DNA of 64,000 bases from Candidatus Thorarchaeota archaeon (GTDB lineage Archaea; Asgardarchaeota; Thorarchaeia; Thorarchaeales; Thorarchaeaceae): positions 32,001 to 96,000 of the forward strand of contig JBHLRZ010000006.1 in the NCBI GenBank assembly GCA_048882045.1, read 5' to 3'. The stretch's first letter is position 1. Each line of letters starts with the position of its first letter. Under the pieces are notes generated by a model. It was not told the origin of the DNA. It searched no databases and saw only the letters and a program-made list of their open reading frames with translations. This document shows, piece after piece, positions 5,017 to 17,472 of this stretch. Made by a program: the position numbers and the translations under genes.

Positions 5017-5643
5017 TTGTCTTCTAGCAATCAATATTCAAAGGCAGAGGTTCTTGTCAAACAGGCCGCCTCATTGATCGAGAAGAAACAGTTCAGTAAG
5101 GCTTTGTCTAAACTGAAACACAGCCTTGCTATGGATCCAAGTAACACGCGAGTCTGGGAAGAGATAGTTGCCTGTAATCTTGAGATGGGGCAACCAAAGC
5201 AAGCAATAGAGGCACTGAATAATCTTCTGAAGATCGAACCAAACTCCTCATCGAGATGGGGTGACAAGGGTCTCATCCATCTTTTGTTGAATGAAAATAC
5301 TCAAGGGATTGAAGCGATTAAAGAGAGTCTGAGGATTCAGCCACGAAATGTGCATAAGTGGGAGCTACTGGCCACAGCCCTCATTGCTGACGAAAGATGG
5401 GATGAGGCGATCGATGCATTGGAAAGAACGCTTGATCTCAATCCTAACTCCGCTGTGACATGGTACAATCTCGCAGTTTGCTATCTCTATTATGAAGATT
5501 TCGGTGCAGCTCTCGAAGCCGTGGAATATGCCATTGCTCTTCAACCATCACTTGAAGATCTTGCGGAACCGTGGGTCGAACTCATTAGTGACGAAATGAT
5601 CGAGGAGGCATACTCACCACTTTCAGGGATAGCTGCTTCATAA
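5017..5643 (+). CDS. tetratricopeptide repeat protein
   Basis: About five 34-aa TPR units (A..MDP.N...W; AI.AL...L...P; WYNLAVCY). Confidence 0.9.
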   Translation: MSSSNQYSKAEVLVKQAASLIEKKQFSKALSKLKHSLAMDPSNTRVWEEIVACNLEMGQPKQAIEALNNLLKIEPNSSSRWGDKGLIHLLLNENTQGIEAIKESLRIQPRNVHKWELLATALIADERWDEAIDALERTLDLNPNSAVTWYNLAVCYLYYEDFGAALEAVEYAIALQPSLEDLAEPWVELISDEMIEEAYSPLSGIAAS

Positions 5644-5649
5644 CATAAT

Positions 5650-7551
5650 CTAAGATTTTTCTCCTTGAGGAGGTTTGATTTTATCCAATTCTTCTTGGAG
5701 CTGTTTCTCAATCTTACCAAGTTTGAAGTTCTTGGCTGATGCTATCGCCTGTTCTAAGGCAGATATGATTCTCTGCTCTTCTAGCTCTTTCTCAGTATTA
5801 TCTGCAATTTTTGGGAGTGCTTCGATCTTTCTTGGTATGACAGCAAGTAGACTCTCAATTGCGCTCTTCGCTTCATCTCGATTCGTAAATGACGAGTCTT
5901 GCTCAGTATCATAGGATGAAACAATTCTGTCAATCTGACTATAGAGACGTCTATACTCCTCATAGGCTCCAGACAATATCTGCCTTACCTCTCCTTCAGA
6001 ATCTGCTTCTTCAAGTGCATCAGAGAGTTTCTTCATAGCATTCTCAAGGAACTCCTTTCTCTCAGCAAGTTTAGTCCGTTTCCTTTCCATCCATCGCCAT
6101 TCATTCGAGATCTGTCGGGATAGGGTAAGTGCCTCGGTGATTGTTTCTCGAAACTCCGCAAACAGTTCCATTGCTTCCTTAAGTTCCACTTCAAGAGTTT
6201 CTATAACATGAACAAGTTGGTAGCTCAGCATATCACCTGCTTGGGCCTCAGCAAGAACCCTGCTCTCCTTGACGGTTCGTTCAGTATTAGCCCAGAGCTT
6301 CTCTACATCATCAGGATCACGATCTGTCCTCTTTCGGACCTCAAGTTCCTCTGAGAGTTGATGAATGTCATGATTGAGAGCTTGGAGTTCCTGGATCTTT
6401 GCTTTCAACAATGCCTTGCCAAGTCGGACGTTGAGCTCATCTGTGAGTAATTGTCGCTCTTCTGGAACCTCCAAGAGGGCGTGAGTGTTATCAACGAGAG
6501 TCTGAAGAGCGTTCTCATAATCCAAGACTGACTCGTGAAACAGACCCTCTTGATACCTATCATCACCCCTCTTCTCCAACTCAAGAGCGCTCTCTAGAAC
6601 ATCATAGGGAGAAGTTTTCAATAAGCTGTCTGCCCACATCGGAGGGATGTCAGTACAAATGTCGAGTGGTTTTCCTGCGATTCGTAAAAGAATGACTAGA
6701 ATCGATTCTGCGGTTGCTACATAGAGTTTGTCTTGATCCGCAGATATCCAGTTGATCTTCTGACCGTTGAGCTTCACAAGACCTACTTCTTCACCCCTCT
6801 TCAAATCCCAAACAACAATCGATCCTGAAGTCATTGCAGCGACCAGATAAAACTCACTAGCCCACATTGATGAAATAGAACTTGAGTGACTTGGTTCTAA
6901 TGTACGTAGAAGACTCCATTCAACTCTATCATAGACTGCTATCTCACCGGTAGATAATCCTACTATCACAAATTCATTATTACCCGATATTACACCGCCT
7001 TTGCCCTTCTTGTCTAGACTAGCAAGCTCTGAAGGAGCAGAGTTCTGGGACTTTAGCCATACCTTCGGTTCTTCCTTCTTCGTACTAGTACAGATGATTC
7101 GAGCGTCCGACCAGAGGTCCGTGATATCAGACTTATGTAGTTGCCAGCTTGAGGTTTCATGCGTATTCTTCTTGATGGAAACCAATCGTCCCTCTCTCGC
7201 ACCCACGTAGAAGTAGTCACCAGAAAGTGTCGATGTAAGAGCGTGGTAGCTCAGTTCAAACCAACCTTGGAGACCCCAGGTTTCTTTGTTCCAGACATAT
7301 ACTCTTCTCTCACAGGTAGCAAAGACTTGTGTTTCATCAACGTCGACAACCAATGGAGGAGTATCAGTTTCACCGAGTTCAGCTACTAAATGCCAATCTT
7401 CCTTCGACCACACACGGACTCGTTGATCCTCACAAGCAGTGTACAAGTACTTGTCATCATAAGTAATGTCAACTGCTGATGCATCTAGTGTATTAATTAC
7501 CTCATGAGTCAATGTCCTAAGATCATTGGAACTCGATGATCCTTTTTCCAT
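5650..7551 (-). CDS. WD40 beta-propeller protein with MIT/TPR-like helical bundle and long C-terminal coiled coil
   Basis: WD blades YLYTACEDQRVRVWS, HKSDITDLW, FVIVGLSTGEIAVYD, HSSSISSMW..SGSIVVWDL; C-terminal half E/K/L/R-rich helical; start refined to ATG 7551 (GGGGAGA upstream; track 7602). Confidence 0.8.
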   Translation of the reverse strand: MEKGSSSSNDLRTLTHEVINTLDASAVDITYDDKYLYTACEDQRVRVWSKEDWHLVAELGETDTPPLVVDVDETQVFATCERRVYVWNKETWGLQGWFELSYHALTSTLSGDYFYVGAREGRLVSIKKNTHETSSWQLHKSDITDLWSDARIICTSTKKEEPKVWLKSQNSAPSELASLDKKGKGGVISGNNEFVIVGLSTGEIAVYDRVEWSLLRTLEPSHSSSISSMWASEFYLVAAMTSGSIVVWDLKRGEEVGLVKLNGQKINWISADQDKLYVATAESILVILLRIAGKPLDICTDIPPMWADSLLKTSPYDVLESALELEKRGDDRYQEGLFHESVLDYENALQTLVDNTHALLEVPEERQLLTDELNVRLGKALLKAKIQELQALNHDIHQLSEELEVRKRTDRDPDDVEKLWANTERTVKESRVLAEAQAGDMLSYQLVHVIETLEVELKEAMELFAEFRETITEALTLSRQISNEWRWMERKRTKLAERKEFLENAMKKLSDALEEADSEGEVRQILSGAYEEYRRLYSQIDRIVSSYDTEQDSSFTNRDEAKSAIESLLAVIPRKIEALPKIADNTEKELEEQRIISALEQAIASAKNFKLGKIEKQLQEELDKIKPPQGEKS

Positions 7552-7767
7552 AATGTCTCCCCAAGAGAACAGTGTGATGAATGGATATTCTGGGTTTTGC
7601 AATACTTAAGGCAGTTTCTTTCTTGGCTAAACAGCGATAGAATGCAATAAAATGACATCTGGAGGAGGGGATATACATGATAAATTCGTTAAAATGGGAG
7701 GACCCACACAGAAAGAACTTAAGACATCCACCGCCAAATTAGCCCACATTAGACGGAGGTAGGCATC

Positions 7768-10458
7768 TTGGACACTAGTGGCTGGCGCCGAGAATTAGAC
7801 AAAATGGCTGAACTGAAAGGAATCCTAGTCTCAGTCAATCCTGCGATGGAAGAACAGTCAGATCGTCAGGTCAGACAGCTCTATGACATCTTCGCGAACT
7901 TGACTAAGATGGAGAACGATTTAGCAACTTCTGGATTTATGAAAAAGAGAAAGGTTCAGACTCAGGTCGAGAAGACAAGGAGTGATCTTGAAACCGATTT
8001 CATGAGAGTCACACGTGATTTCGCTGAGTACTTCCGGAAAGAACACAAAGATACTCTAGCTATCGCACCGAAAGTCCAGGCCCTAAAACCTTCTGAGGTC
8101 AAAGGGATTTCGACACTTAATTTTCCAGGCATCGGAGCAGGCGACCTCAAGGACTTCGAGAAGTTGCACGAGTTTGCAAAGGCATTTTCAAAGTTGTATC
8201 TTGTTATTCATGAGGATGTAGAACGCGATGTGAAATCTACCCTTGATGAGAACAAGGCTACAGTTGACACGTACGAACGTCACATATCTATCGATAAGAG
8301 TGAGGTTTCCACAACAGTTGCAAATGACGATGTTGCTGGAATGTCATTAAAAGACCTCATAATCCTGAATGACAAACTTCAGGCAGACCGTCAGTTCCTT
8401 GATGGCAGAAAGGACGAGGTGAGTAAACTCCTTGGTTCATCCCTTGTGGGTAAAACGGAATCACTACAAGCTTCTGTGGAGACTGCATCCAGACTAGGAC
8501 TTGAGTTGCCGATCGAATTCTCAAAGGAGTTGAGAATAATTGCCAGAGATGCATCAAAGGCCGAAACTCTGACTGCGCTGATTGCGTTGGAGAATCAACT
8601 GCATGCAGCAGAGGTCAAGATGGCAAATGCACTTCGTGACAAGATAATCAACATCAAGCATGATGTCACAGCCAAGATAGTGGAGGGCGGCATACCAACG
8701 ACTGCTGATGTGATACCTCCAGCACCTCCAGTTACAGTTGAAGGAGAGGGCATTGCTAGCCTGCTTTCCAGCTATCAGAGAATGGTCGAATGGGAAGGTC
8801 AGGTCAAGATCGCTCTCAGAGAACGCTTGTTCGAACTCCTTGATGATGTTGAGAAGGCGACTGAAGCGCCCGAAGACGCAGGTATCAAGGATATTGTTGC
8901 AGTACGTCAATTCATCGCGGATTCAAAGAAGAAACTGAAGCAGGTAGAGATTGACGAGATGGTGAGAGTCTACCTCCAAGCAAAACAGATGGATGATGAG
9001 TACCGAAGGAACATCACTGAGGCCATCCGCAACTATCTCTCAAGATTCAATGAACTAGCAACTTCAGCAGACAGAGTACTTGACCACGCACAGCTAAGTA
9101 AGAAGGCTCCGAAGGTCGAGGAACTTGAAGGAGGTATTGTCTACTTACTAGGTTCTCTCACGAGCCTCAGAGAAGCAGTTGACAGCGGAGTGGCAACTTT
9201 TCGCACCGCATGTCAACAGGAGATTGATGCAATAGTTCATGATCTTCAGACCGTCAAACCTGCATATGCTGAGATATTCATGCCCATTATTGTAGAACTC
9301 GATGAAGGATCAACCAGGATACAGGGGATGGATGACTTCTCTGAGATAAAATCAGAGATGCGCTCCATCAAAGATGGTATCCTTGTGAAAGCACAGGACG
9401 CACTTGAGAACCTCAGATATAGACTAGGTGTGAAGATCAGACTTGCAGCTGCAAAATTGATGGGTGCTGGTGTGGAGATCCCGCCAGACGCACAAGAAGC
9501 CATCAGCGAACTGAACAGCGTGGGTGTTGCAGCTGATAATGTGTTTAGTCTTCCAGCCATAGCCAGGAAGATGGTTGAGATCTATGAGAAGAAGATCCAA
9601 GACAAGATAATTGAGAAACTTGGAGTAGAAGTCGATTCTCTAATCACGAGTCTCGATAGAGCAAGCAGCATCGGAGTGAAGTTAGGAAAAGAACTCAAGA
9701 TGCTCAATGGTCTAAAAGCCAAACCACCAGCAGAGCTTGAGGAAGCAGCTGATGCATTTGACAAACTCCAGAATCTGACAACATCACCCAACGTTCACAA
9801 GAAGATCAGAGAGCGTGTTGATGAAGCCTATGTTCAGATCAAGGGAGCTCTGTCACTCTTTGAAGACCAAGGAATGTCTGAATTCGTCGAGCGGCTACAG
9901 ATTCTCATTGACCAAGTTCCTGCCAAGCTCGAAACTGACTCACCACATGTCAATGAGGCACTTGATGTGTGTCTCACTCTTGCCAACATCCAGGAAGAAA
10001 TGCTTCAGATGATTAAGAGCATAGCTGAGAAGAATGGTGAGGCTCATACTGCTGAACTCAAGGATAGAAGCCAGTACTTTTCGACAATCGAGAGAGTAGT
10101 AGCGAAGTATCCTGATGAATTCAGCAAGATAGTATTTGATGTCAAGAAGATGGACTCTCTAGAGTCTGGCCTCACAGAGGCGGTCGATCTTGATGTGGCC
10201 ATTGCTAACTTCCATGAATTGGGCGATATGAGAAAGCAGTGGCTGGAGAAAGCAGTCGCGATGGATGACTGGCACAAGTCCCTCAGAATGTTCATGACTG
10301 GTTTCAGTCCGACTGACAAACCTGATACACGTGACAAGTTCATCGACGACGCAATACGAAAGATTAAGGAGACCTACAGCCGTGAGGACATAAGTTCGTA
10401 CCTAAGTTGGGCCATAAGAGAGAGTGCCCAGGCGTTGGTCGATTCGAGGAAGAAATAG
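7768..10458 (+). CDS. 896-aa all-helical rod/coiled-coil repeat protein, first gene of tubulin-like operon
   Basis: Long ORF with GGAGGT RBS before TTG; no TM segment or Walker A; recurring helix-helix-G-hydrophobic unit about every 65 aa. Confidence 0.85.
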   Translation: MDTSGWRRELDKMAELKGILVSVNPAMEEQSDRQVRQLYDIFANLTKMENDLATSGFMKKRKVQTQVEKTRSDLETDFMRVTRDFAEYFRKEHKDTLAIAPKVQALKPSEVKGISTLNFPGIGAGDLKDFEKLHEFAKAFSKLYLVIHEDVERDVKSTLDENKATVDTYERHISIDKSEVSTTVANDDVAGMSLKDLIILNDKLQADRQFLDGRKDEVSKLLGSSLVGKTESLQASVETASRLGLELPIEFSKELRIIARDASKAETLTALIALENQLHAAEVKMANALRDKIINIKHDVTAKIVEGGIPTTADVIPPAPPVTVEGEGIASLLSSYQRMVEWEGQVKIALRERLFELLDDVEKATEAPEDAGIKDIVAVRQFIADSKKKLKQVEIDEMVRVYLQAKQMDDEYRRNITEAIRNYLSRFNELATSADRVLDHAQLSKKAPKVEELEGGIVYLLGSLTSLREAVDSGVATFRTACQQEIDAIVHDLQTVKPAYAEIFMPIIVELDEGSTRIQGMDDFSEIKSEMRSIKDGILVKAQDALENLRYRLGVKIRLAAAKLMGAGVEIPPDAQEAISELNSVGVAADNVFSLPAIARKMVEIYEKKIQDKIIEKLGVEVDSLITSLDRASSIGVKLGKELKMLNGLKAKPPAELEEAADAFDKLQNLTTSPNVHKKIRERVDEAYVQIKGALSLFEDQGMSEFVERLQILIDQVPAKLETDSPHVNEALDVCLTLANIQEEMLQMIKSIAEKNGEAHTAELKDRSQYFSTIERVVAKYPDEFSKIVFDVKKMDSLESGLTEAVDLDVAIANFHELGDMRKQWLEKAVAMDDWHKSLRMFMTGFSPTDKPDTRDKFIDDAIRKIKETYSREDISSYLSWAIRESAQALVDSRKK

Positions 10459-10470
10459 GAGTAAACACCA

Positions 10471-11862
10471 ATGTTCGGAAGTAGTCCACCTAGAACCCCC
10501 ATTGAAGACGATACCACAAAAGCAGCCGAGGTTTTCGCCATTGGAATTGGCGAATGTGGCTCAAACATCGTGGGATCCTACCTTCAGACAAGCAGGGACA
10601 AGAAACTACCCTCAAGAGTGAGGGGCTATCTACTCATCAACACTGACAGAGCAGACCTGACAAAGGTACGCCAAAAATATGGCATACCAAAAGAGAACAC
10701 ACTCCTATATGGTGCCAGCGAAATCGGTGTCGGTGGCCGGTTCATGGATGGTTATAATAGTATCATGGAATCAAAGGACATCATCTTCGACCAGCTCAGT
10801 AACTTGGGTTTCGAAGGCGTTTCAGGCTTCTGTATCTTCACAAGCCTTGGCGGTGGAACTGGTTGCGGAGGTACACCAGCACTCATCGAGCTGCTCAAGC
10901 AGAGATTCCAAGAAGAAGAAGGACGACGTATCTTTGTATATGTCATAGGAATCTTGCCCTTCGAGGGACAGTCTAGTGAGGCACTGAATTCAATCTGGGC
11001 TGTATCGAAGTTGCTTCGAGCTCAGCTCCAAGAACGTGGTGCAGACCTTACAATTCTACTATCAAACAGAACAATGCTGAAGAGAATCCTTCAATGGAGA
11101 AAGGGTGATACTGTAGACTACCTGCAGCGAGAGCTAGAGGTGGACATTGCAGACATCGAATCAATCGAAAAAATGGTCCCATCTACACTTGAGGAAGCGA
11201 GTGCAGCTGACGCGAGAACCGAACAGGCATTCGTCGAACTCGTCAACCCACTTGCTCTTGATGTCGTGGAGGCCATGTTATCACCAGGTGTGTGGGAAAA
11301 ATCAAAGGATGTCTTTCCAACCACAGATCTTGCAGACTATGCTAGAAAGCTAGATCCTGTTGTAGTACCTGCGCTCTATACTGACATTGGTCTCATACCT
11401 GACGCTGGGAGTATGCCCAAGCAGTTGAGGACAATGATTGACTATGCTGTGAAGGAGTGTTCATACGCTGACGTCGGTGAAGAACCGAATGCCGAGAGTG
11501 TCTACTATGTGATGTCAGGTCCAAGGCATGTTGCGAAAGCAGAATTTGGGATGCATGTGAAGGAAGCACTGGACAAGTTCATTGCTCCCGGTGCAGCTAT
11601 CACACCTTGTTACGTCCAATACCTTGACCAAGACCCTAAGACCAACCTGCTTCTTCTCCTTGGCTTGCCAAAGATACCTGAACTTGTTCAGATCATCAAT
11701 GAAGCTACCCAGCTGGTGAATCTTCACAGTGGTGCCTCACCACTCAAGCAAGGATGGTTCATGAGGTCGAAGGGTACTACTCGAAAAGAACTCGTTGATG
11801 CTATCAATGACTTCCGTGAACTCTTCAGTTACTACATGACTCCAGGAGAAACAATGGAATAG
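10471..11862 (+). CDS. divergent tubulin/FtsZ/CetZ superfamily GTPase
   Basis: T1 GIGECGSNI (from 10543), INTD, GVGG, signature SLGGGTGCGG (GGGTGCG at 10849-10869), ILPF, LSN, T7-like TDLAD (11323); AGGAG RBS. Confidence 0.93.
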   Translation: MFGSSPPRTPIEDDTTKAAEVFAIGIGECGSNIVGSYLQTSRDKKLPSRVRGYLLINTDRADLTKVRQKYGIPKENTLLYGASEIGVGGRFMDGYNSIMESKDIIFDQLSNLGFEGVSGFCIFTSLGGGTGCGGTPALIELLKQRFQEEEGRRIFVYVIGILPFEGQSSEALNSIWAVSKLLRAQLQERGADLTILLSNRTMLKRILQWRKGDTVDYLQRELEVDIADIESIEKMVPSTLEEASAADARTEQAFVELVNPLALDVVEAMLSPGVWEKSKDVFPTTDLADYARKLDPVVVPALYTDIGLIPDAGSMPKQLRTMIDYAVKECSYADVGEEPNAESVYYVMSGPRHVAKAEFGMHVKEALDKFIAPGAAITPCYVQYLDQDPKTNLLLLLGLPKIPELVQIINEATQLVNLHSGASPLKQGWFMRSKGTTRKELVDAINDFRELFSYYMTPGETME

Positions 11863-11878: not shown

Positions 11879-12946
11879 TTGTCTGACTCTTCATTCCACT
11901 ACGAGGACCTTATCGATAGGCTTCTTCTTATAATCACCCTGAACTCGACACTGATCCACTTTCTCTTAGGCTCACAGGTTGAGGACAGCATAGATCCGGA
12001 CCGGGTTGATTCTTTGACTCAAGGACTTGTTAGAACCCGGAAGTGGATGGAAGAGGCAACCACAATGAAAGGCATCCCTCCTTCAACACAGAATATCATG
12101 AGCCTCATTGTAAAGCGACTCTCACAGGTTGAGAGTCTTCTGCCCAAGCTATCAAACAAAGCGAAGCAAATGGAGTCTGGTGCCGCAACACAGGAGATCC
12201 TCTCCCTATTGGATGGAGCTGAAGCTGCTCCGAGAGCTGCTAGTGCAAGTCCTGATTCTTCAACAACAACTGCAGATGGCGAGATTATCCCACTTGTTGG
12301 TGGTGAAACAGCCAAGCCAATGGAGGCATATCGTAAGGTCGATGTCGAAGATGACCAGTTTGGTCTCATCGGACAGAGTCAGCGGCTCATTCAGCAGAAG
12401 AGTGCTTCTTGTCACGTGCTGCTTCCAACATTTTGGTTAGAAGTCCTTAGAGAGATCCATAGGTATCGCTCAGATTCGCCCTATTTTGGAGACGTAGTTG
12501 AGTTACCCGCTCGCATACTAGTAAAGACAGCTAAGGGACTTCTGACAGAGGCCCCAGGTGCAAGACTTCTCCAGGATCTAATGAAGTCAAGACAACAGGA
12601 GAATTACCTCAACCCATCAGAAATGGAACGAATAGAACGTGCTGTCGCAAAATACTACCAGGGAGTTGAGCCCATACTGAGAGAGAAAGAGGTTGAGGTC
12701 AAAGACAAGATACTCGAAGCCCAGACAGCTTTCGATGGGTTCAACTGGGGTGGTCCAGAATTGGAAAAGAGGATCATAAAGCGATTGAATCAGCAGGTAG
12801 AAGAAGCAATTCAAGCAGCTGAAACAGGAACCGATACCGCTCGTCAGGTCATCCATGCAGAAATTGCTAAGTTACTCTGCAAACTTCAACATGCTCTTCT
12901 GGCTGAACCGAGACCCCGAGAGATCCTCACTCAGATGAAACCATAG
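11879..12946 (+). CDS. hypothetical helical protein, third gene of tubulin-like operon
   Basis: 355-aa ORF 16 bp after the GTPase stop, GGTGGTG RBS; helical domains separated by an A/S/T-rich linker. Confidence 0.8.
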   Translation: MSDSSFHYEDLIDRLLLIITLNSTLIHFLLGSQVEDSIDPDRVDSLTQGLVRTRKWMEEATTMKGIPPSTQNIMSLIVKRLSQVESLLPKLSNKAKQMESGAATQEILSLLDGAEAAPRAASASPDSSTTTADGEIIPLVGGETAKPMEAYRKVDVEDDQFGLIGQSQRLIQQKSASCHVLLPTFWLEVLREIHRYRSDSPYFGDVVELPARILVKTAKGLLTEAPGARLLQDLMKSRQQENYLNPSEMERIERAVAKYYQGVEPILREKEVEVKDKILEAQTAFDGFNWGGPELEKRIIKRLNQQVEEAIQAAETGTDTARQVIHAEIAKLLCKLQHALLAEPRPREILTQMKP

Positions 12947-13027: not shown

Positions 13028-14434
13028 ATGACTGGCCTAAAGACTATGTTGAATCCAAAAGTGACTGCTGTTGTAGGTGTTTCGACTACTAATCCTTTCA
13101 GTCCAGGTAATGTAATCTTCAGAAAATTGGAATTCGAAAATGGTTTGCCTACATACCCCATTAATCCTAAGGGAGGGAAGGTCGAAGGGATTCCTGTCCA
13201 CAAGTCCATCACTGCTGCACCTGATGACATTGAGTTGGCAGTGATCTCGGTTCCTGCAAAATATGTACCAGGTGTGTTAAGGGAGTGTGGAGAGAAGAAG
13301 ATACGGTCAGTCATAGTGGTCTCAGGAGGATTCAGTGAAGTTGGAGAAACCGGTGCAAATCTTCAATCAGAAATTGTCGAGATTGCAAACCAATACAAAA
13401 TATCCATGGTCGGACCAAACTGCATTGGTGTGTTTGTCCCAGATGTCCTAGATACATTTTTCCTTCCCTCTGAAAGGGTTGCACGACCTAGAAAGGGGAA
13501 AGTAGCAGTCATATCACAGAGTGGAGGTTGGCTGATCGAGCGACTTGAAGAGTTTGCAGATAGAGATGTAGGTATTGCTGCTGCAATTTCAATTGGTAAC
13601 TCTGCTCAGACAAAAGTGACTGATTTCATCAGGTACTTTGGAAATGAAAAGACTGTGGATGTCATTTGTGCATATATTGAAGGCTTCGGACAAGATGAAG
13701 GGAGAGAGTTTGTTGAAACATGCAAGGAGATTGTACTGAAAAAGCCAGTTATTGTTCTGAAAGGTGGAGAATCGGAAGCTGGTCACCGAGCGACACAAAG
13801 TCACACATCATCTTTAGCTGGAGACAATGCAATAACAAATGCAGCTTTCCAACAGTATGGGGTGATTCGTGCACTCGATGAGGATGAGGTGATGGCATAC
13901 TCGAAGGTGTTTTCGTTCAAACCGAAACCTATGCTTGGACCTCGTATCGGCACATTGACCGTGAGCGGTGGTCATGGAGTCATAGCCAGTGACGAAGCGT
14001 CTCATTATGGTCTCACAATGCCGCCATTCAGTCAGGAAGAACAATCTATAATGAGAGCACAGATGACGCCAGCATATCAAGGGATTGCATCATTTAGGAA
14101 TCCATGTGATCTCACTGGTAGTGCTGCAGATGTTGATTACGAACGTGTCTTGGATAAAATGCTCAGTTTTGATTCAATAGATGCTGCACTTCTACTGTTA
14201 CTACCATATGCTCCAGGTATCTCACTTCAGATTGGCGCGAGAGTGGCAAATGTTGCAAAAAGTCATGACAAGACTATTGTAGCTTACGTTCCAGACCTTG
14301 ACAAATACGAAGTGATCATTCGAGGATTTGAGTTGAACGGTATTGCAGTCGGGGATACAATTGAAGAGGCTGTCCAAATGGTGAATGCGATCCGGAAGAG
14401 GACGAAATATCTTCAACGCTTAGGAAAGTTATGA
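13028..14434 (+). CDS. acdA: acetate/acyl-CoA ligase (ADP-forming) alpha subunit
   Basis: CoA-binding domain, GPNCIG, SQSGG, SIGN, phospho-His SHTSSLAG, NPCDLTG. Confidence 0.88.
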   Translation: MTGLKTMLNPKVTAVVGVSTTNPFSPGNVIFRKLEFENGLPTYPINPKGGKVEGIPVHKSITAAPDDIELAVISVPAKYVPGVLRECGEKKIRSVIVVSGGFSEVGETGANLQSEIVEIANQYKISMVGPNCIGVFVPDVLDTFFLPSERVARPRKGKVAVISQSGGWLIERLEEFADRDVGIAAAISIGNSAQTKVTDFIRYFGNEKTVDVICAYIEGFGQDEGREFVETCKEIVLKKPVIVLKGGESEAGHRATQSHTSSLAGDNAITNAAFQQYGVIRALDEDEVMAYSKVFSFKPKPMLGPRIGTLTVSGGHGVIASDEASHYGLTMPPFSQEEQSIMRAQMTPAYQGIASFRNPCDLTGSAADVDYERVLDKMLSFDSIDAALLLLLPYAPGISLQIGARVANVAKSHDKTIVAYVPDLDKYEVIIRGFELNGIAVGDTIEEAVQMVNAIRKRTKYLQRLGKL

Positions 14435-15565
14435 TTAGATCCCACTGGCAATCTTTAGGTAGTCTATGCCTAAGGACTTCAGAGACTCAACAAGCTTGCC
14501 ACTTAGGATAAGTTTCTTGGATGAAAGTTCCTCAACCTTTTGTGAACCTGTCAGGTACATTGCGACTCTCAGTCCTTCTAGCATTCGTTCTAACTCTATA
14601 ACAACATCAAGGGCGCTTCCATGTACTGCAGGACGCAAGAGGGGATGGGCGACTCCAGCGGCAATTGATCCGAGAGCAAGAGCCTTGGCAATATCAAGTC
14701 CACTCCGGATCCCACCAGTAGCTATTACATCGAGGTCAGTGGCATCCAGCACCATCAATACACTGAGTGCAGTGGGTATTCCCCAATCCCAGAATTCTAG
14801 TCCAAGCTGTGCATTTAGGTCATCATCTTCTTTCAATGCTCGATAGTATTCAACTCCAGCCCAGCTTGTTCCTCCGACTCCACCCACATCGACACCTACA
14901 ACACCTGCATCTTCCAAACTCTTTGCTACCTCTCCGGATATACCCGCACCAGTTTCCTTTATGATGACTGGAACGTCAACGGAATCAACAATCATGGCGA
15001 TACTCTCTAGAGCTCCTTCAGAGTTACAGTCCCCCTCAGGTTGAATAGCTTCTTGGAGTGGATTGAGATGAACCGCAAGGATGTCAGCTTCTATCATTGA
15101 TACTGCTTCTGGAGCAACCTTGACATGAGTGGCACCGATATTAGCAATTATTGGAACAGATGGTGCGGTTTCCCTGACAATTCGGAATGTATCGGCCAAT
15201 GATGGATCCTCCACTGCAGCTCGTTGGCTACCCACACCTATGGGGAGCCCCAGCTCCTCCGCAGCACTAGCGAGTTTCTGGTTTACATTCAAGGTCTGGG
15301 GATGTCCACCAGTCATTGCAGCAATTATGAGCGGTGCACCAGCACGAAGTCCAAAGAAGTTTGTAGTGAGGTCAATACTGTCCTTATCAATCTCAGGTAG
15401 TGCGTTATGAACGAAATCTATGTCCTCAAACATTGTAGATCGTTGGCACTGGACATCCTCATCAAGGCAGATCTCGATGTGTTCAATCTTTCTTCTTCTT
15501 GTCAGTGAAGACTCAGAAGATTCATCCTCTGAACTTGAATCTGAATATGACCGTCCTTCAACCAT
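14435..15565 (-). CDS. fni: type 2 isopentenyl-diphosphate delta-isomerase
   Basis: RKIEHI, AMTGG, GVGSQR, HLNPLQEAIQPEGD, KETGAG, GGTSW, WGIPT. Confidence 0.96.
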   Translation of the reverse strand: MVEGRSYSDSSSEDESSESSLTRRRKIEHIEICLDEDVQCQRSTMFEDIDFVHNALPEIDKDSIDLTTNFFGLRAGAPLIIAAMTGGHPQTLNVNQKLASAAEELGLPIGVGSQRAAVEDPSLADTFRIVRETAPSVPIIANIGATHVKVAPEAVSMIEADILAVHLNPLQEAIQPEGDCNSEGALESIAMIVDSVDVPVIIKETGAGISGEVAKSLEDAGVVGVDVGGVGGTSWAGVEYYRALKEDDDLNAQLGLEFWDWGIPTALSVLMVLDATDLDVIATGGIRSGLDIAKALALGSIAAGVAHPLLRPAVHGSALDVVIELERMLEGLRVAMYLTGSQKVEELSSKKLILSGKLVESLKSLGIDYLKIASGI

Positions 15566-16252: not shown

Positions 16253-16326
16253 AAGCAAGTTCAGTGTTCACTATTCACTGGATATTCAGAAAGAGTAATG
16301 TGTCGGATTGTTTCGATGATAGTGAA

Positions 16327-17472
16327 ATGAGAGGAAAATTAGTTTATCCCTATTCTGATGCACTGCTAGGCTATGAGTTTCGACAGGATCATCCACTAAA
16401 ACCAGAAAGGCTAAAGCTCACCTATCTCCTTTCTAAGGAGCTTGGACTCCTTGACAAAATCGAGGTACTCGAACCAAATCATGCTACCCGGGAGGAACTC
16501 GAACTCTTTCATTCTCCAGAGTTTATTGATGCTGTAGAGGATAGTGGAATGAACAACAATCCACATCCAAGGTATGGATTGGGAACTTCTGATAATCCGA
16601 TTTTTCCTCAGGTTCATGACACTGGATTGAGGTATGTTGGAGCAACCCTGGATGCTATGAGAGCCATAATGGAAGGAGCATCCAATGCATTCTGTATCTC
16701 TGGAGGACTTCACCATGCACACAAGAGTCTAGCCTCTGGATTTTGTATCTATAATGATGTAGTAATAGCAATCAAATTGATGCAACAGCAAAGGAAGGCA
16801 AAGGTGCTCTACCTAGATATTGATGCACATCACGGCGATGGTGTCCAGAAGGCTTTCTTCGATTCGAAAGATGTATTGACTATTTCCATACATCAAACAG
16901 GGCAAACTCTCTTTCCAGGAACAGGATATGTCTACGAAACTGGAAGTGGAGAAGCAGCAGGTTATTCTGTAAACGTTCCTCTCTTGCCTGGTGCAGGAAC
17001 GCCAGAGCTCAATCAAATTTTCGAGGAGATAATTATACCATTGTTTGAGTCCTACAAACCCGATTTACTAGTGACTCAGCTTGGAGTTGATGGGCATTTC
17101 TTGGATCCACTTGCTCAGCTAGCATATACATCTCATGGCTTTGAGAGTATACTTGAAAGACTACGAGATATGTCATCTAAGAAATGTAAGATGGGATGGC
17201 TGGCGGTTGGAGGCGGAGGATATCATCCTGTCAATGTTGCTCGACTCTGGACCCTCTTTCTAGCCATTATGATAAAGGAGAAGGTGTCTGATGAGATTCC
17301 CGATACATTTCGTGAGATGAGTTCCGAAATGGGTTACAAAAATATTCCTGACCTGATGAGAGATGAGGAAGAAGTTGTTCAGATGTATGTTCCCAGAGAG
17401 GTGGTTTCACTGGAACTTGACCGGACCATCAGGAGGATAAAGGAACTGATATTCCCCTATCACGGTCTGTAA
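16327..17472 (+). CDS. acuC: histone deacetylase family / acetoin utilization AcuC-like protein
   Basis: HPLKPER, GGLHHA, SGFCIYND, DIDAHHGDG, FPGTG, GGGGY; start refined from track 16264. Confidence 0.9.
   Translation: MRGKLVYPYSDALLGYEFRQDHPLKPERLKLTYLLSKELGLLDKIEVLEPNHATREELELFHSPEFIDAVEDSGMNNNPHPRYGLGTSDNPIFPQVHDTGLRYVGATLDAMRAIMEGASNAFCISGGLHHAHKSLASGFCIYNDVVIAIKLMQQQRKAKVLYLDIDAHHGDGVQKAFFDSKDVLTISIHQTGQTLFPGTGYVYETGSGEAAGYSVNVPLLPGAGTPELNQIFEEIIIPLFESYKPDLLVTQLGVDGHFLDPLAQLAYTSHGFESILERLRDMSSKKCKMGWLAVGGGGYHPVNVARLWTLFLAIMIKEKVSDEIPDTFREMSSEMGYKNIPDLMRDEEEVVQMYVPREVVSLELDRTIRRIKELIFPYHGL

What the first reader, a model, noticed from the sequence alone, without database searches (positions are those of the whole stretch)
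10471..11862. Tubulin-superfamily GTPase with mosaic tubulin-like and FtsZ-like motifs
Seen: T1 loop GIGECGSNI is closer to tubulin GQCGNQI than to FtsZ GGGGGNA. The T4 signature is GGGTGCG, with Cys where S/T is usual. T6 is LSN. The T7 segment FPTTDLADY keeps an FtsZ-type DxAD catalytic Asp but lacks the preceding Asn. There is an acidic helical insert of about 45 aa (about 11080-11240) and a helical C-terminal extension (RKELVDAINDFRELFSYY) instead of an FtsZ disordered linker. Length is 463 aa, similar to tubulin. Inference: a distinct subfamily whose insert and C-terminal helices could form the outer surface bound by the operon partners, analogous to tubulin H11/H12.
Basis: partly seen in the sequence, partly recalled or inferred. 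Interest (0 to 1): 0.8.

Follow-up and report, generated by a model that had tools for sequence, protein, structure and literature searches.

The report
Asgard "Asg.Tub" tubulin-like GTPase operon
This gene encodes an intact tubulin/FtsZ-type GTPase of "Asg.Tub", an Asgard-archaeal family named in 2023 but never studied at the bench, whose GTP-binding half looks like CetZ, whose last helices look like true tubulin, and which is always inherited with the same two unknown helical proteins, so it is probably an untested filament system.

Summary
It is not an ordinary CetZ or FtsZ. It belongs to "Asg.Tub", a CetZ-like Asgard clade already published by Santana-Molina et al. (2023, PMC9871819). That paper's own alignment contains a near-identical Thorarchaeales sequence. 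So the "distinct subfamily" claim is correct but not new.

What I tested:
- **GTPase half:** closest to CetZ by profile.
- **C-terminal half:** matches no Pfam family at E <= 1, so not CetZ_C, Tubulin_C or FtsZ_C.
- **Predicted fold:** superposes on tubulins through H11-H12 (Z about 33-35), and the last helices carry a weak tubulin-like sequence signal.
- **Trees:** place the family outside canonical CetZ, near tubulins and other non-canonical clades. The exact position is unresolved.
- **Operon:** the GTPase and its two flanking helical orphan genes share one phyletic pattern (123-129 of 400 Asgard genomes) and are almost always adjacent.

Most likely this is a GTP-driven filament former working with two dedicated partners. 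Polymerisation and partner binding are inferred, not shown. This scan has found the same family before in other genomes, with the same reading.

The parts
7768..10458 (+). Upstream partner: an 896-aa, Pfam-less, predominantly helical protein. The most conserved positions are at the C-terminus (W825, W835-H836, Y878-L879) and in an N-terminal basic motif (G56, K60, R61).
   Evidence: ORF. GGAGGT lies 7 nt before the TTG start. No Pfam or NCBIfam hit. Homologous to the genes directly upstream of the GTPase in distant Asgard loci. Found in 129 of 400 genomes, in the same families as the GTPase, and adjacent in nearly all.
10471..11862 (+). Asg.Tub-family tubulin-superfamily GTPase, 463 aa (P0001).
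10543..10566 (+). T1 loop, G-I-G-E-C-G-S-N (residues 25-32).
   Evidence: Conservation counts; per-family consensus.
10849..10872 (+). T4 signature GGGTGCGG (residues 127-134), with Cys132 where CetZ and tubulin have Ser and FtsZ has Thr.
11059..11067 (+). T6, L-S-N (residues 197-199). Ser198 replaces the Asp found in CetZ, tubulin and FtsZ.
11083..11217 (+). H6-H7 insert (about residues 205-249): variable in length, poorly conserved and modelled at low confidence.
11317..11340 (+). T7 loop and start of H8, P-T-T-D-L-A-D-Y (residues 283-290). D286 and D289 are invariant.
11668..11838 (+). C-terminal helices H11, H11' and H12 (residues 400-456), carrying a W-F...G...L..A...L...Y motif.
   Evidence: Model secondary structure and pLDDT; superposition on tubulins to residue 457; profile match to the tubulin H11-H12 junction.
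11879..12946 (+). Downstream partner, 355 aa: a three-helix bundle (residues 4-112), a disordered linker (112-145) and a conserved all-helical domain (about residues 150-355).
   Evidence: ORF. GGTGGT lies 6 nt before the TTG start. No Pfam hit. Model has pLDDT 84.3. No informative fold match. Found in 123 of 400 genomes, in the same families, adjacent downstream.

Best explanation
The gene encodes a member of the Asgard-specific Asg.Tub branch of the tubulin/FtsZ superfamily. It most likely binds GTP in a pocket built by the T1-T6 loops. It probably polymerises head-to-tail, so that the T7 loop of one subunit (D286, D289) completes the active site of the next and triggers hydrolysis, giving dynamic filaments. 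Its outer face carries tubulin-like H11-H12 helices. It works with two dedicated, co-transcribed helical proteins: a 900-1300 aa protein upstream and a roughly 350 aa two-domain protein downstream. These probably act as a scaffold or adaptor and as a regulator or linker of the filament. The module is not the division apparatus, because the genome also has two FtsZ genes.

Shown here: family membership, intact and conserved motifs, the predicted fold, and co-inheritance and adjacency of the three genes.

Inferred: GTP hydrolysis, polymerisation, physical binding of the partners, and the cellular role.
For: Superfamily and fold:
- PF00091 scores above its cut-off.
- AF2 model has pLDDT 80.7 and pTM 0.82.
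- The model matches OdinTubulin (Z 35.1, 364 aa), CetZ2 (Z 34.9, 328 aa), and BtubB, beta-tubulin and AtubB (Z 33-34).

Family identity: the published Asg.Tub alignment holds a near-identical Thorarchaeales AB-25 sequence.

Catalytic competence: all nucleotide-binding loops and both T7 aspartates are invariant in 30 sequences down to 50% identity.

Distinct, tightly constrained family:
- Three full-length 50%-identity representatives have E <= 5e-28 among 1.84 billion proteins; the next relatives drop to about 1e-11.
- The clade has support 99 in the first tree and 100/97 in the second.

Module:
- GTPase in 124 of 400 Asgard genomes, upstream partner in 129, downstream partner in 123, all in the same nine GTDB families and in none of the others.
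- 17 of 17 fetched three-gene modules have the same order and strand, with tiny gaps or overlaps.
- In lineages with two GTPase copies, each copy has its own upstream-partner copy.
- In the window the gaps are 12 and 16 nt, with SD-like sites.

Not the divisome: the genome has two separate FtsZ genes.
Against:
- T4 Cys, T6 Ser-Asn and T7 Thr-Thr-Asp deviate from every characterised family, so the kinetics or even the activity could differ.
- A 36-55 aa insert between H6 and H7 lies near what is the longitudinal interface in tubulin (my own knowledge) and could alter or block canonical assembly.
- Partner binding rests on synteny alone. No natural fusions were found, although that search is weak.
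- Both partner proteins have no recognisable fold or family.
Confidence: 0.7

Rival explanations
1. It is an ordinary CetZ: a cell-shape-controlling archaeal tubulin-like protein that merely diverged in Asgard archaea.
For: The best sequence matches among solved structures are CetZ1, CetZ and CetZ2. The GTPase-domain profile aligns to canonical CetZ at E = 1.5e-24 with 31% identity. Santana-Molina et al. judged the group closer to CetZ than to tubulin. One database record is annotated as CetZ.
Against: - Pfam CetZ_C is absent at E <= 1, whereas true CetZs score 1e-26 to 1e-54.
- A non-iterative canonical CetZ C-domain HMM gives nothing significant for most members.
- The family falls outside the canonical CetZ clade in both trees.
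- Forcing the family and canonical CetZ into one clade costs 12.65 lnL (p-AU 0.04, marginal).
- Canonical CetZs lack the H12-like helix.
- T7 is D-x-A-D rather than the CetZ D-x-x-E.
- The gene context is different and family-specific.
Confidence: 0.1
2. It is a non-polymerising GTPase, acting as a switch or assembly factor within a three-protein complex. On this view the tubulin fold is retained without cytomotive filament formation.
For: The T4, T6 and T7 residues are unusual. A large insert sits near the expected longitudinal interface. The partners are obligate.
Against: The T7 loop, which has no known role except in trans at a subunit interface (established knowledge of FtsZ and tubulin), is as conserved as the nucleotide pocket: 8 of 23 positions are invariant, including both aspartates.
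Confidence: 0.12
3. It is a third FtsZ-like division protein.
For: FtsZ-type T2 (NTD), T5 (PF) and T7 (D-x-A-D) motifs.
Against: - TIGR00065 scores 31 bits against a cut-off of 295.
- There is no FtsZ_C domain and no disordered linker with a C-terminal peptide.
- The genome has two bona fide FtsZ genes.
- The family is absent from about two thirds of sampled Asgard genomes, including 0 of 135 in the largest family.
Confidence: 0.05
4. It is a mobile-element DNA-partition system of the TubZ/PhuZ type.
For: It is a three-gene cassette with a tubulin-like GTPase. There is a weak Tubulin_2 hit (19.7 bits, below the cut-off of 27).
Against: - Near-universal, single-locus presence within whole archaeal families, with very high conservation.
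- GC content like its surroundings.
- Housekeeping neighbours: a type 2 IPP isomerase and an acetate-CoA ligase alpha subunit.
- No DNA-binding adaptor is recognisable in either partner.
Confidence: 0.03

Closest known systems
Asg.Tub, the 'novel CetZ-like group in Asgardarchaeota' of Santana-Molina, del Saz-Navarro and Devos 2023 (PMC9871819). It is probably also the 'CetZ-related Asgard archaeal clade' used as an outgroup in the 2026 Asgard microtubule preprint (doi 10.64898/2026.02.15.705738); I could not check that identity by sequence.
   Same: It is the same family. The paper's own C-terminal alignment (four sequences) contains Thorarchaeales AB-25 OLS30664.1, which is nearly identical to this protein over residues 228-464. 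The unstable placement between CetZ and tubulin was reproduced here.
   Different: Nothing differs at the family level. Not in that paper, as far as I could read it:
- the breadth of distribution (124 of 400 genomes in nine GTDB families);
- the strict three-gene module and the co-duplication of the upstream partner;
- the tubulin-like H11-H12 signal;
- the motif-level description.
CetZ (Haloferax volcanii CetZ1 and CetZ2, PDB 4b46 and 4b45; Methanosaeta thermophila CetZ, PDB 3zid).
   Same: It has the closest GTPase-domain sequence and equal structural similarity of the core (Z 34-35, 324-328 aa aligned). T1 is of the G-x-G-Q/E-A/C-G type.
   Different: There is no CetZ_C domain by Pfam. There are extra H11'-H12 helices where CetZs end in low-complexity tails. 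T7 is D-x-A-D rather than D-x-x-E. There is an H6-H7 insert. The family lies outside the canonical clade.
Bona fide prokaryotic tubulins: OdinTubulin (PDB 7evb and related entries), Asgard AtubA/B (PDB 9f6t, 9hxc) and BtubA/B (PDB 2btq, 5o09).
   Same: Similar length (about 425-463 aa). The model superposes end to end, including H11-H12 (Z 33-35, 355-365 aa aligned). The full-length profile alignment covers 374 columns (E = 2.2e-10). There is a shared W-[FY]...G...A...L...Y pattern in the last helices. The family is sister to tubulins in the GTPase-domain tree (93/86, not robust).
   Different: There is no Tubulin_C domain. The GTPase domain is much closer to CetZ. T2, T5 and T7 are FtsZ-like. 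No alpha/beta-type pair exists: it is a single gene, or two distant paralogues each with its own partner. It never occurs in the same genome as true tubulins in this sample.
The BtubA-BtubB-BtubC operon of Prosthecobacter, and TubZ-TubR(-TubY) cassettes.
   Same: The logic is similar: a tubulin-superfamily filament former is co-transcribed with dedicated non-enzymatic helical partner proteins. This is an analogy from the literature and from my own knowledge.
   Different: The partners here are unrelated orphans. There is no TPR as in BtubC and no DNA-binding fold as in TubR. The inheritance pattern looks chromosomal and vertical rather than mobile.
Non-canonical 'CetZ-like' clade of the Methanosarcinales type (12 representatives, for example P0141, P0148, P0185 and P0200).
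   Same: It is the nearest family by profile (E = 8.7e-30 over 339 columns). It groups with Asg.Tub and tubulins to the exclusion of canonical CetZ (96/84). A clade of Asg.Tub with this group is not rejected (p-AU 0.24). Its members also end in a helix with an ...N-L-x-x-Y pattern.
   Different: It is a separate, well-supported clade (100/99) from another phylum. The last-59-residue profile does not match it (P = 0.57). I did not examine its gene context.

Membership tests
Tubulin/FtsZ superfamily | GTPase domain matching Pfam PF00091 above the gathering score. | tested here: met
   71.8 bits against a cut-off of 33, over residues 20-204.
Tubulin/FtsZ superfamily | Glycine-rich signature GGGTG[ST]G (T4), plus the T1-T6 nucleotide loops. 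| tested here: met
   GGGTGCGG with Cys at the S/T position. All glycines are invariant, and the T1, T2, T3, T5 and T6 key residues are invariant in 30 sequences.
Tubulin/FtsZ superfamily | T7 loop after core helix H7, carrying the acidic catalytic residue(s). | tested here: met
   TTDLAD aligns by register with FtsZ NLDYAD. D286 and D289 are invariant. H7 spans residues 245-270 in the model, followed by a loop and a short H8.
Tubulin/FtsZ superfamily | Two-domain fold. | tested here: met
   Predicted model only: Z 33-35 to CetZ, OdinTubulin, BtubB, beta-tubulin and AtubB, with 324-365 residues aligned at 2.8-3.3 A.
Tubulin/FtsZ superfamily | GTP-dependent polymerisation. | not testable with these tools
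   Needs protein biochemistry and EM.
Asg.Tub (Santana-Molina et al. 2023) | Sequence membership in the published group. | tested here: met
   Supplement 35 of PMC9871819 lists OLS30664.1 (Thorarchaeales AB-25), which is near-identical over the C-terminal half. OLS26264.1 (LC-3) corresponds to P0113 of my set by source name, 'Tubulin-like protein CetZ, Heimdallarchaeota LC_3'.
Asg.Tub (Santana-Molina et al. 2023) | Asgard-restricted monophyletic clade separate from CetZ, FtsZ and tubulin. | tested here: met
   Nearly all named homologues are Asgard; two members of one 90% cluster carry Bathyarchaeota or Thermofilum MAG labels. Clade support is 99 in the first tree and 100/97 in the second.
Canonical CetZ | CetZ C-terminal domain (Pfam PF21011). 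| tested here: not met
   No hit at E <= 1 for the C-terminal halves of three family members. Controls P0137, P0139 and P0140 hit at 2e-26, 2e-54 and 4e-49.
Canonical CetZ | Placement inside the canonical CetZ clade. | tested here: not met
   The family falls outside that clade in the full-length quick tree and in the careful GTPase-domain tree, where canonical CetZ has support 98/91. The AU test of a joint clade gives p = 0.04, which is marginal, and the groups were named after seeing the tree.
Canonical CetZ | Role in cell-shape control. | not testable with these tools
   Needs genetics in an organism that carries the gene.
FtsZ | NCBIfam TIGR00065 equivalog score. | tested here: not met
   31 bits against a cut-off of 295.2.
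FtsZ | FtsZ_C domain, followed by a disordered linker and a conserved C-terminal peptide. | tested here: not met
   No Pfam hit for the C-terminal half. The model is helical to residue 455 of 463.
Bona fide tubulin (alpha, beta, gamma, Odin, Atub, Btub) | Tubulin_C domain (Pfam PF03953). | tested here: not met
   No hit for the C-terminal half. The six-frame genome search for PF03953 finds nothing in this genome.
Bona fide tubulin (alpha, beta, gamma, Odin, Atub, Btub) | C-terminal H11-H12 helical hairpin on the outer surface. | tested here: inconclusive
   Present in the predicted model and superposed to residue 457. The sequence signal is weak (P = 1.4e-4 over 27 columns; controls 0.36-0.42). 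There is no experimental structure.
Bona fide tubulin (alpha, beta, gamma, Odin, Atub, Btub) | Placement inside the tubulin clade. | tested here: not met
   The tubulin clade excludes the family, with support 100 in the first tree and 100/99 in the second. At best the family is its sister (93/86), and an alternative placement is not rejected (p-AU 0.24).
TubZ/PhuZ-type (Pfam Tubulin_2) | PF13809 above the gathering score. | tested here: not met
   19.7 bits against a cut-off of 27.

The most novel reading that the evidence does not exclude
Asg.Tub is not a CetZ offshoot. It would be the closest surviving prokaryotic sister lineage of the tubulin clade: a protein with a CetZ-grade GTPase domain that had already acquired the H11-H12 outer-surface helices. 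It would run as a three-component filament system with two dedicated partners and fill the tubulin niche in the Asgard lineages that lack true tubulin. That would make it a living intermediate for the FtsZ/CetZ-to-tubulin transition.
Probability: 0.2. Interest if true: 0.8.

Novelty: already known. Interest (0 to 1): 0.5.

Why it matters
How tubulin arose from FtsZ/CetZ-like ancestors is an open question in eukaryogenesis. Only a handful of Asgard genomes carry true tubulins: 8 of 400 in this sample. Asg.Tub is far more widespread, present in about a third of Asgard genomes. It is strongly conserved and combines a CetZ-like GTPase domain with tubulin-like terminal helices. It also comes with two obligate partner proteins of unknown fold.

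It has been catalogued but never expressed, imaged or solved. It is therefore a cheap, well-defined target. Three genes can be co-expressed to ask what filament it forms, whether H11-H12 already served as a partner-binding surface before tubulin existed, and what the partners do.

Tried and rejected
- **C-terminal half against known sequences.** Searched against Pfam and, as a family profile, against PDB sequences. There were no related hits, only chance-level matches such as RuvB at E = 0.1.
- **Iterative search from a CetZ C-domain.** In a small local set it pulled in the family. I do not rely on this, because a non-iterative canonical CetZ_C HMM and hhalign gave only marginal signals (11 bits at best; hhalign probability 17%). 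Drift in a tiny database is likely.
- **Full-length MAFFT alignment.** It mis-registers T7 because of the insert. I corrected the register by reading raw sequences, and I therefore treat the full-length tree as less reliable than the GTPase-domain tree.
- **Downstream partner.** ESM Atlas features gave nothing. Foldseek against PDB gave nothing below E = 0.09. VIA wide gave only generic three-helix-bundle matches to the N-terminal domain (Z 9-11, within the noise range for helical bundles). The atlas fold search found no match above TM 0.31 normalised to the query.
- **Upstream partner.** No consistent Pfam family in 16 members, and only ApoA-I-type helical similarity in the PDB.
- **Neighbours of OdinTubulin and other Asgard tubulins.** Not related to the partners here; the best hhalign probability was 27% over 57 columns, typical of coiled-coil similarity.
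- **Paralogue comparison to locate a partner-binding site.** No concentrated switch positions were found.
- **Fused, longer forms of the GTPase.** None found, and the tool itself calls this weak evidence.
- **Sigma-70 promoter and terminator scan.** Counts were no higher than in shuffles, and the scan is not appropriate for archaea.
- **Model coordinates.** They are not available to scripts, so I did not do surface-conservation mapping or measure the Cys29-Cys132 distance.
Full report
**Observation.** The window holds a 463-aa ORF at 10471-11862 (+). It scores 71.8 bits on Pfam Tubulin/FtsZ PF00091, against a cut-off of 33, over residues 20-204. I aligned 30 homologues spanning 50-90% identity and counted residues.
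- T1 G-I-G-E-C-G-S-N, T2 N-T-D, T3 G-V-G-G, T4 G-G-G-T-G-C-G-G, T5 L-P-F..Q, T6 L-S-N and T7 P-T-T-D-L-A-D-Y are invariant or nearly so.
- The two unusual cysteines, C29 and C132, are each present in 29 of 30 sequences.
- MAFFT slipped around T7 because of an insert, so I read the raw sequences instead. H7 begins E-Q-A-F (FtsZ E-E-A-F, CetZ E-A-Y). T-T-D-L-A-D-Y lines up with FtsZ N-L-D-Y-A-D-V, CetZ V-V-D-A-S-E-I and tubulin L-N-L-D-L-G-K-L.

There are two corrections. The H6-H7 insert (36-55 aa across the family) is only mildly acidic here, is not acidic in several lineages, is the least conserved internal segment and is modelled at low confidence. And T1 is as CetZ-like as it is tubulin-like.

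**What family it is.** Homologues carry almost only Asgard labels: Thorarchaeota at 85-97% identity, and Hod-, Heimdall-, Hermod-, Baldr- and other Asgard groups at 44-63%. Two members of one 90% cluster are labelled Bathyarchaeota or Thermofilum MAGs. Nearly all are annotated as hypothetical.

In an exhaustive search of 1.84 billion 50%-identity representatives, three full-length representatives have E <= 5e-28. The next relatives start at about 1e-11. So the family is sharply bounded and internally well conserved.

Santana-Molina et al. 2023 (PMC9871819) reported a "novel CetZ-like group in Asgardarchaeota", which they called Asg.Tub. They found its position unstable between CetZ and tubulins and its neighbours to be unknown coiled-coil genes. 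Their supplementary Asg.Tub alignment contains Thorarchaeales AB-25 OLS30664.1, which is nearly identical to this protein. The family identity is therefore settled. [quoted passage not shown] I found no paper with biochemistry or a structure for the family.

**Mosaic character, tested.**
- *By sequence.* The family profile matches solved structures only through the GTPase domain. CetZ1 scores 5e-12, M. thermophila CetZ 4e-8, CetZ2 2e-7, OdinTubulin 3e-5, Btub, Atub and gamma-tubulin about 1e-4, and FtsZ 5e-4.
- *C-terminal half.* Residues 271-463 hit no Pfam family at E <= 1, whereas true CetZs hit CetZ_C at 1e-26 to 1e-54. This half also matches no related PDB sequence.
- *By predicted structure.* The AF2 model has pLDDT 80.7 and pTM 0.82. 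CetZs and tubulins are tied at Z 33-35. CetZ structures stop aligning at residues 417-428, whereas OdinTubulin, BtubB, beta-tubulin and AtubB align to residues 457-460.
- *Profile-profile comparisons.* Against canonical CetZ the alignment is local, covering the N-terminal domain (170 columns, E = 1.5e-24). Against nine Asgard tubulins fetched from genomes it runs end to end (374 columns, E = 2.2e-10).
- *Last 59 residues alone.* They match the tubulin H11-H12 junction at P = 1.4e-4. One-sided reversed controls give 0.36-0.42, and canonical CetZ gives 0.12. Canonical CetZs end in low-complexity tails after H11.
- *Shared pattern.* W-[FY], then G, then L/F..A, then L...Y.

**Phylogeny.** A 98-row full-length quick tree gives the family 99% SH-aLRT support on a long stem. 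It lies outside canonical CetZ, in a weak group with tubulins and other non-canonical clades.

Because of the alignment problem, I rebuilt the tree on the GTPase domain only: 55 rows, 179 columns, LG+C20 PMSF, careful search.
- Family: 100/97.
- Canonical CetZ: 98/91.
- Tubulins plus a Microbulbifer tubulin-like protein: 100/99.
- The family is sister to tubulins at 93/86.
- Together with a Methanosarcinales-type non-canonical clade, they form a 96/84 group that excludes canonical CetZ.

AU tests give two results. Holding the family with canonical CetZ costs 12.65 lnL (p = 0.04, marginal, with groups named after seeing the tree). Holding it with the non-canonical clade instead of tubulins is not rejected (p = 0.24).

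So the protein is not an ordinary CetZ, and its exact position is unresolved, in agreement with the literature. By profile, the non-canonical clade is its nearest family (E = 8.7e-30 over 339 columns).

**The operon.** In the window, the three genes 7768-10458, 10471-11862 and 11879-12946 lie on one strand, 12 and 16 nt apart, each with an SD-like site. The flanking proteins have no Pfam or NCBIfam family. Their counterparts next to the GTPase in distant Heimdall- and Hod-type loci are homologous.

Distribution across 400 Asgard genomes:

| Gene | Genomes with a match |
|---|---|
| GTPase | 124 |
| Upstream partner | 129 |
| Downstream partner | 123 |

- All three occur in the same nine GTDB families, for example 74, 76 and 73 of 85 in the window's own family, and 20, 22 and 20 of 22 in another.
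- All three are absent from every other family, including 0 of 135 in the largest.
- By matching coordinates between the listings, I found the upstream partner directly adjacent on the same strand in about 60 places. The exceptions lie 0.5-10 kb away (G323, G058, G061).
- All 17 three-gene modules that I fetched have the same order and strand, with tiny gaps or overlaps.
- Genomes with two GTPase copies have two upstream-partner copies, one beside each GTPase, but only one downstream partner.

This is strong evidence for a functional three-gene module. It is not evidence for where the proteins touch.

**The partners.** The downstream partner models confidently (pLDDT 84.3) as a three-helix bundle, a disordered linker and an all-helical C-terminal domain with pLDDT about 95. 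No informative fold match was found. The upstream partner is a long helical protein whose most conserved positions lie in its last roughly 120 residues and in an N-terminal basic motif. Neither partner resembles the coiled-coil neighbours of OdinTubulin.

**Mechanism.** The most likely reading is a GTP-dependent, self-assembling filament protein. The T7 loop has no known role except completing the neighbouring subunit's active site (established knowledge of FtsZ and tubulin), and it is as conserved as the nucleotide pocket. The genome has two separate FtsZ genes, and the module is missing from two thirds of Asgard genomes, so it is not the core divisome. The two partners probably scaffold, anchor or regulate the filament. 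These steps are inferred.

**Verdict.** The family is already in the literature, and this scan has met it repeatedly in other genomes with the same conclusion. What remains of interest is that it is widespread, conserved and uncharacterised, and that it may sit next to tubulin in the tree.

Noticed in passing
Phylum-wide genome searches; not in the window: True tubulins (Pfam Tubulin_C) occur in 8 of 400 Asgard genomes, in four GTDB families. None of those families, and none of those genomes, carries Asg.Tub (124 genomes in nine other families). With only 8 non-independent genomes this is suggestive at best: the chance of no overlap is about 0.05 if the genomes were independent.
   Followed up: partly
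L025 and L037 (genome G067), with the listings: In one Asgard family, many genomes have two divergent copies of the GTPase, each with its own upstream-partner copy directly adjacent, but only one downstream partner. So the GTPase and the upstream partner were duplicated as a pair.
   Followed up: partly
P0175 (named): A 438-aa protein from the gammaproteobacterium Microbulbifer epialgicus groups with the Asgard tubulins (100/99). It carries a clear tubulin-type H11-H12 motif (...Y-Y-E-A-G-M...D-D-A...L-L-K-D-Y). This may be a bacterial tubulin outside Prosthecobacter.
   Followed up: no
window 10555-10557 (Cys29) and 10864-10866 (Cys132): Two nearly invariant cysteines sit in the T1 and T4 phosphate-binding loops. 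Cys at the T4 position is absent from the CetZ, tubulin and FtsZ consensus built here. Redox control of nucleotide binding is conceivable.
   Followed up: no
window 5650-7602 (-) and 5017-5643 (+): A WD40 beta-propeller protein with a long helical tail is transcribed divergently from the operon, and a TPR protein lies beyond it. Neither is next to the module in the Heimdall- and Hod-type loci L001, L002 and L004, so the association looks lineage-local.
   Followed up: partly
L001:9377-12905, L002:102-1037, L004:749-1917: Arf/Ras-family small GTPase genes lie within a few kb of the module in three distant Heimdall- and Hod-type loci. Small GTPases are very abundant in Asgard genomes (my own knowledge), so this may be chance.
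   Followed up: no
window 13028-14434 (+), 14435-15565 (-), 16264-17472 (+): The neighbours downstream of the operon are ordinary housekeeping genes: an ADP-forming acetate-CoA ligase alpha subunit, a type 2 IPP isomerase and a histone-deacetylase-family protein. This is consistent with a chromosomal, non-mobile context.
   Followed up: no
listing, genomes G094, G097, G098, G102 and G104-G107: GTPase matches in one family show a single in-frame stop. In these cases the profile match starts at position 1 or ends at position 450 or later, so the match probably runs slightly past an end of the gene, and this is most likely an artefact rather than a broken gene. I did not check it.
   Followed up: no
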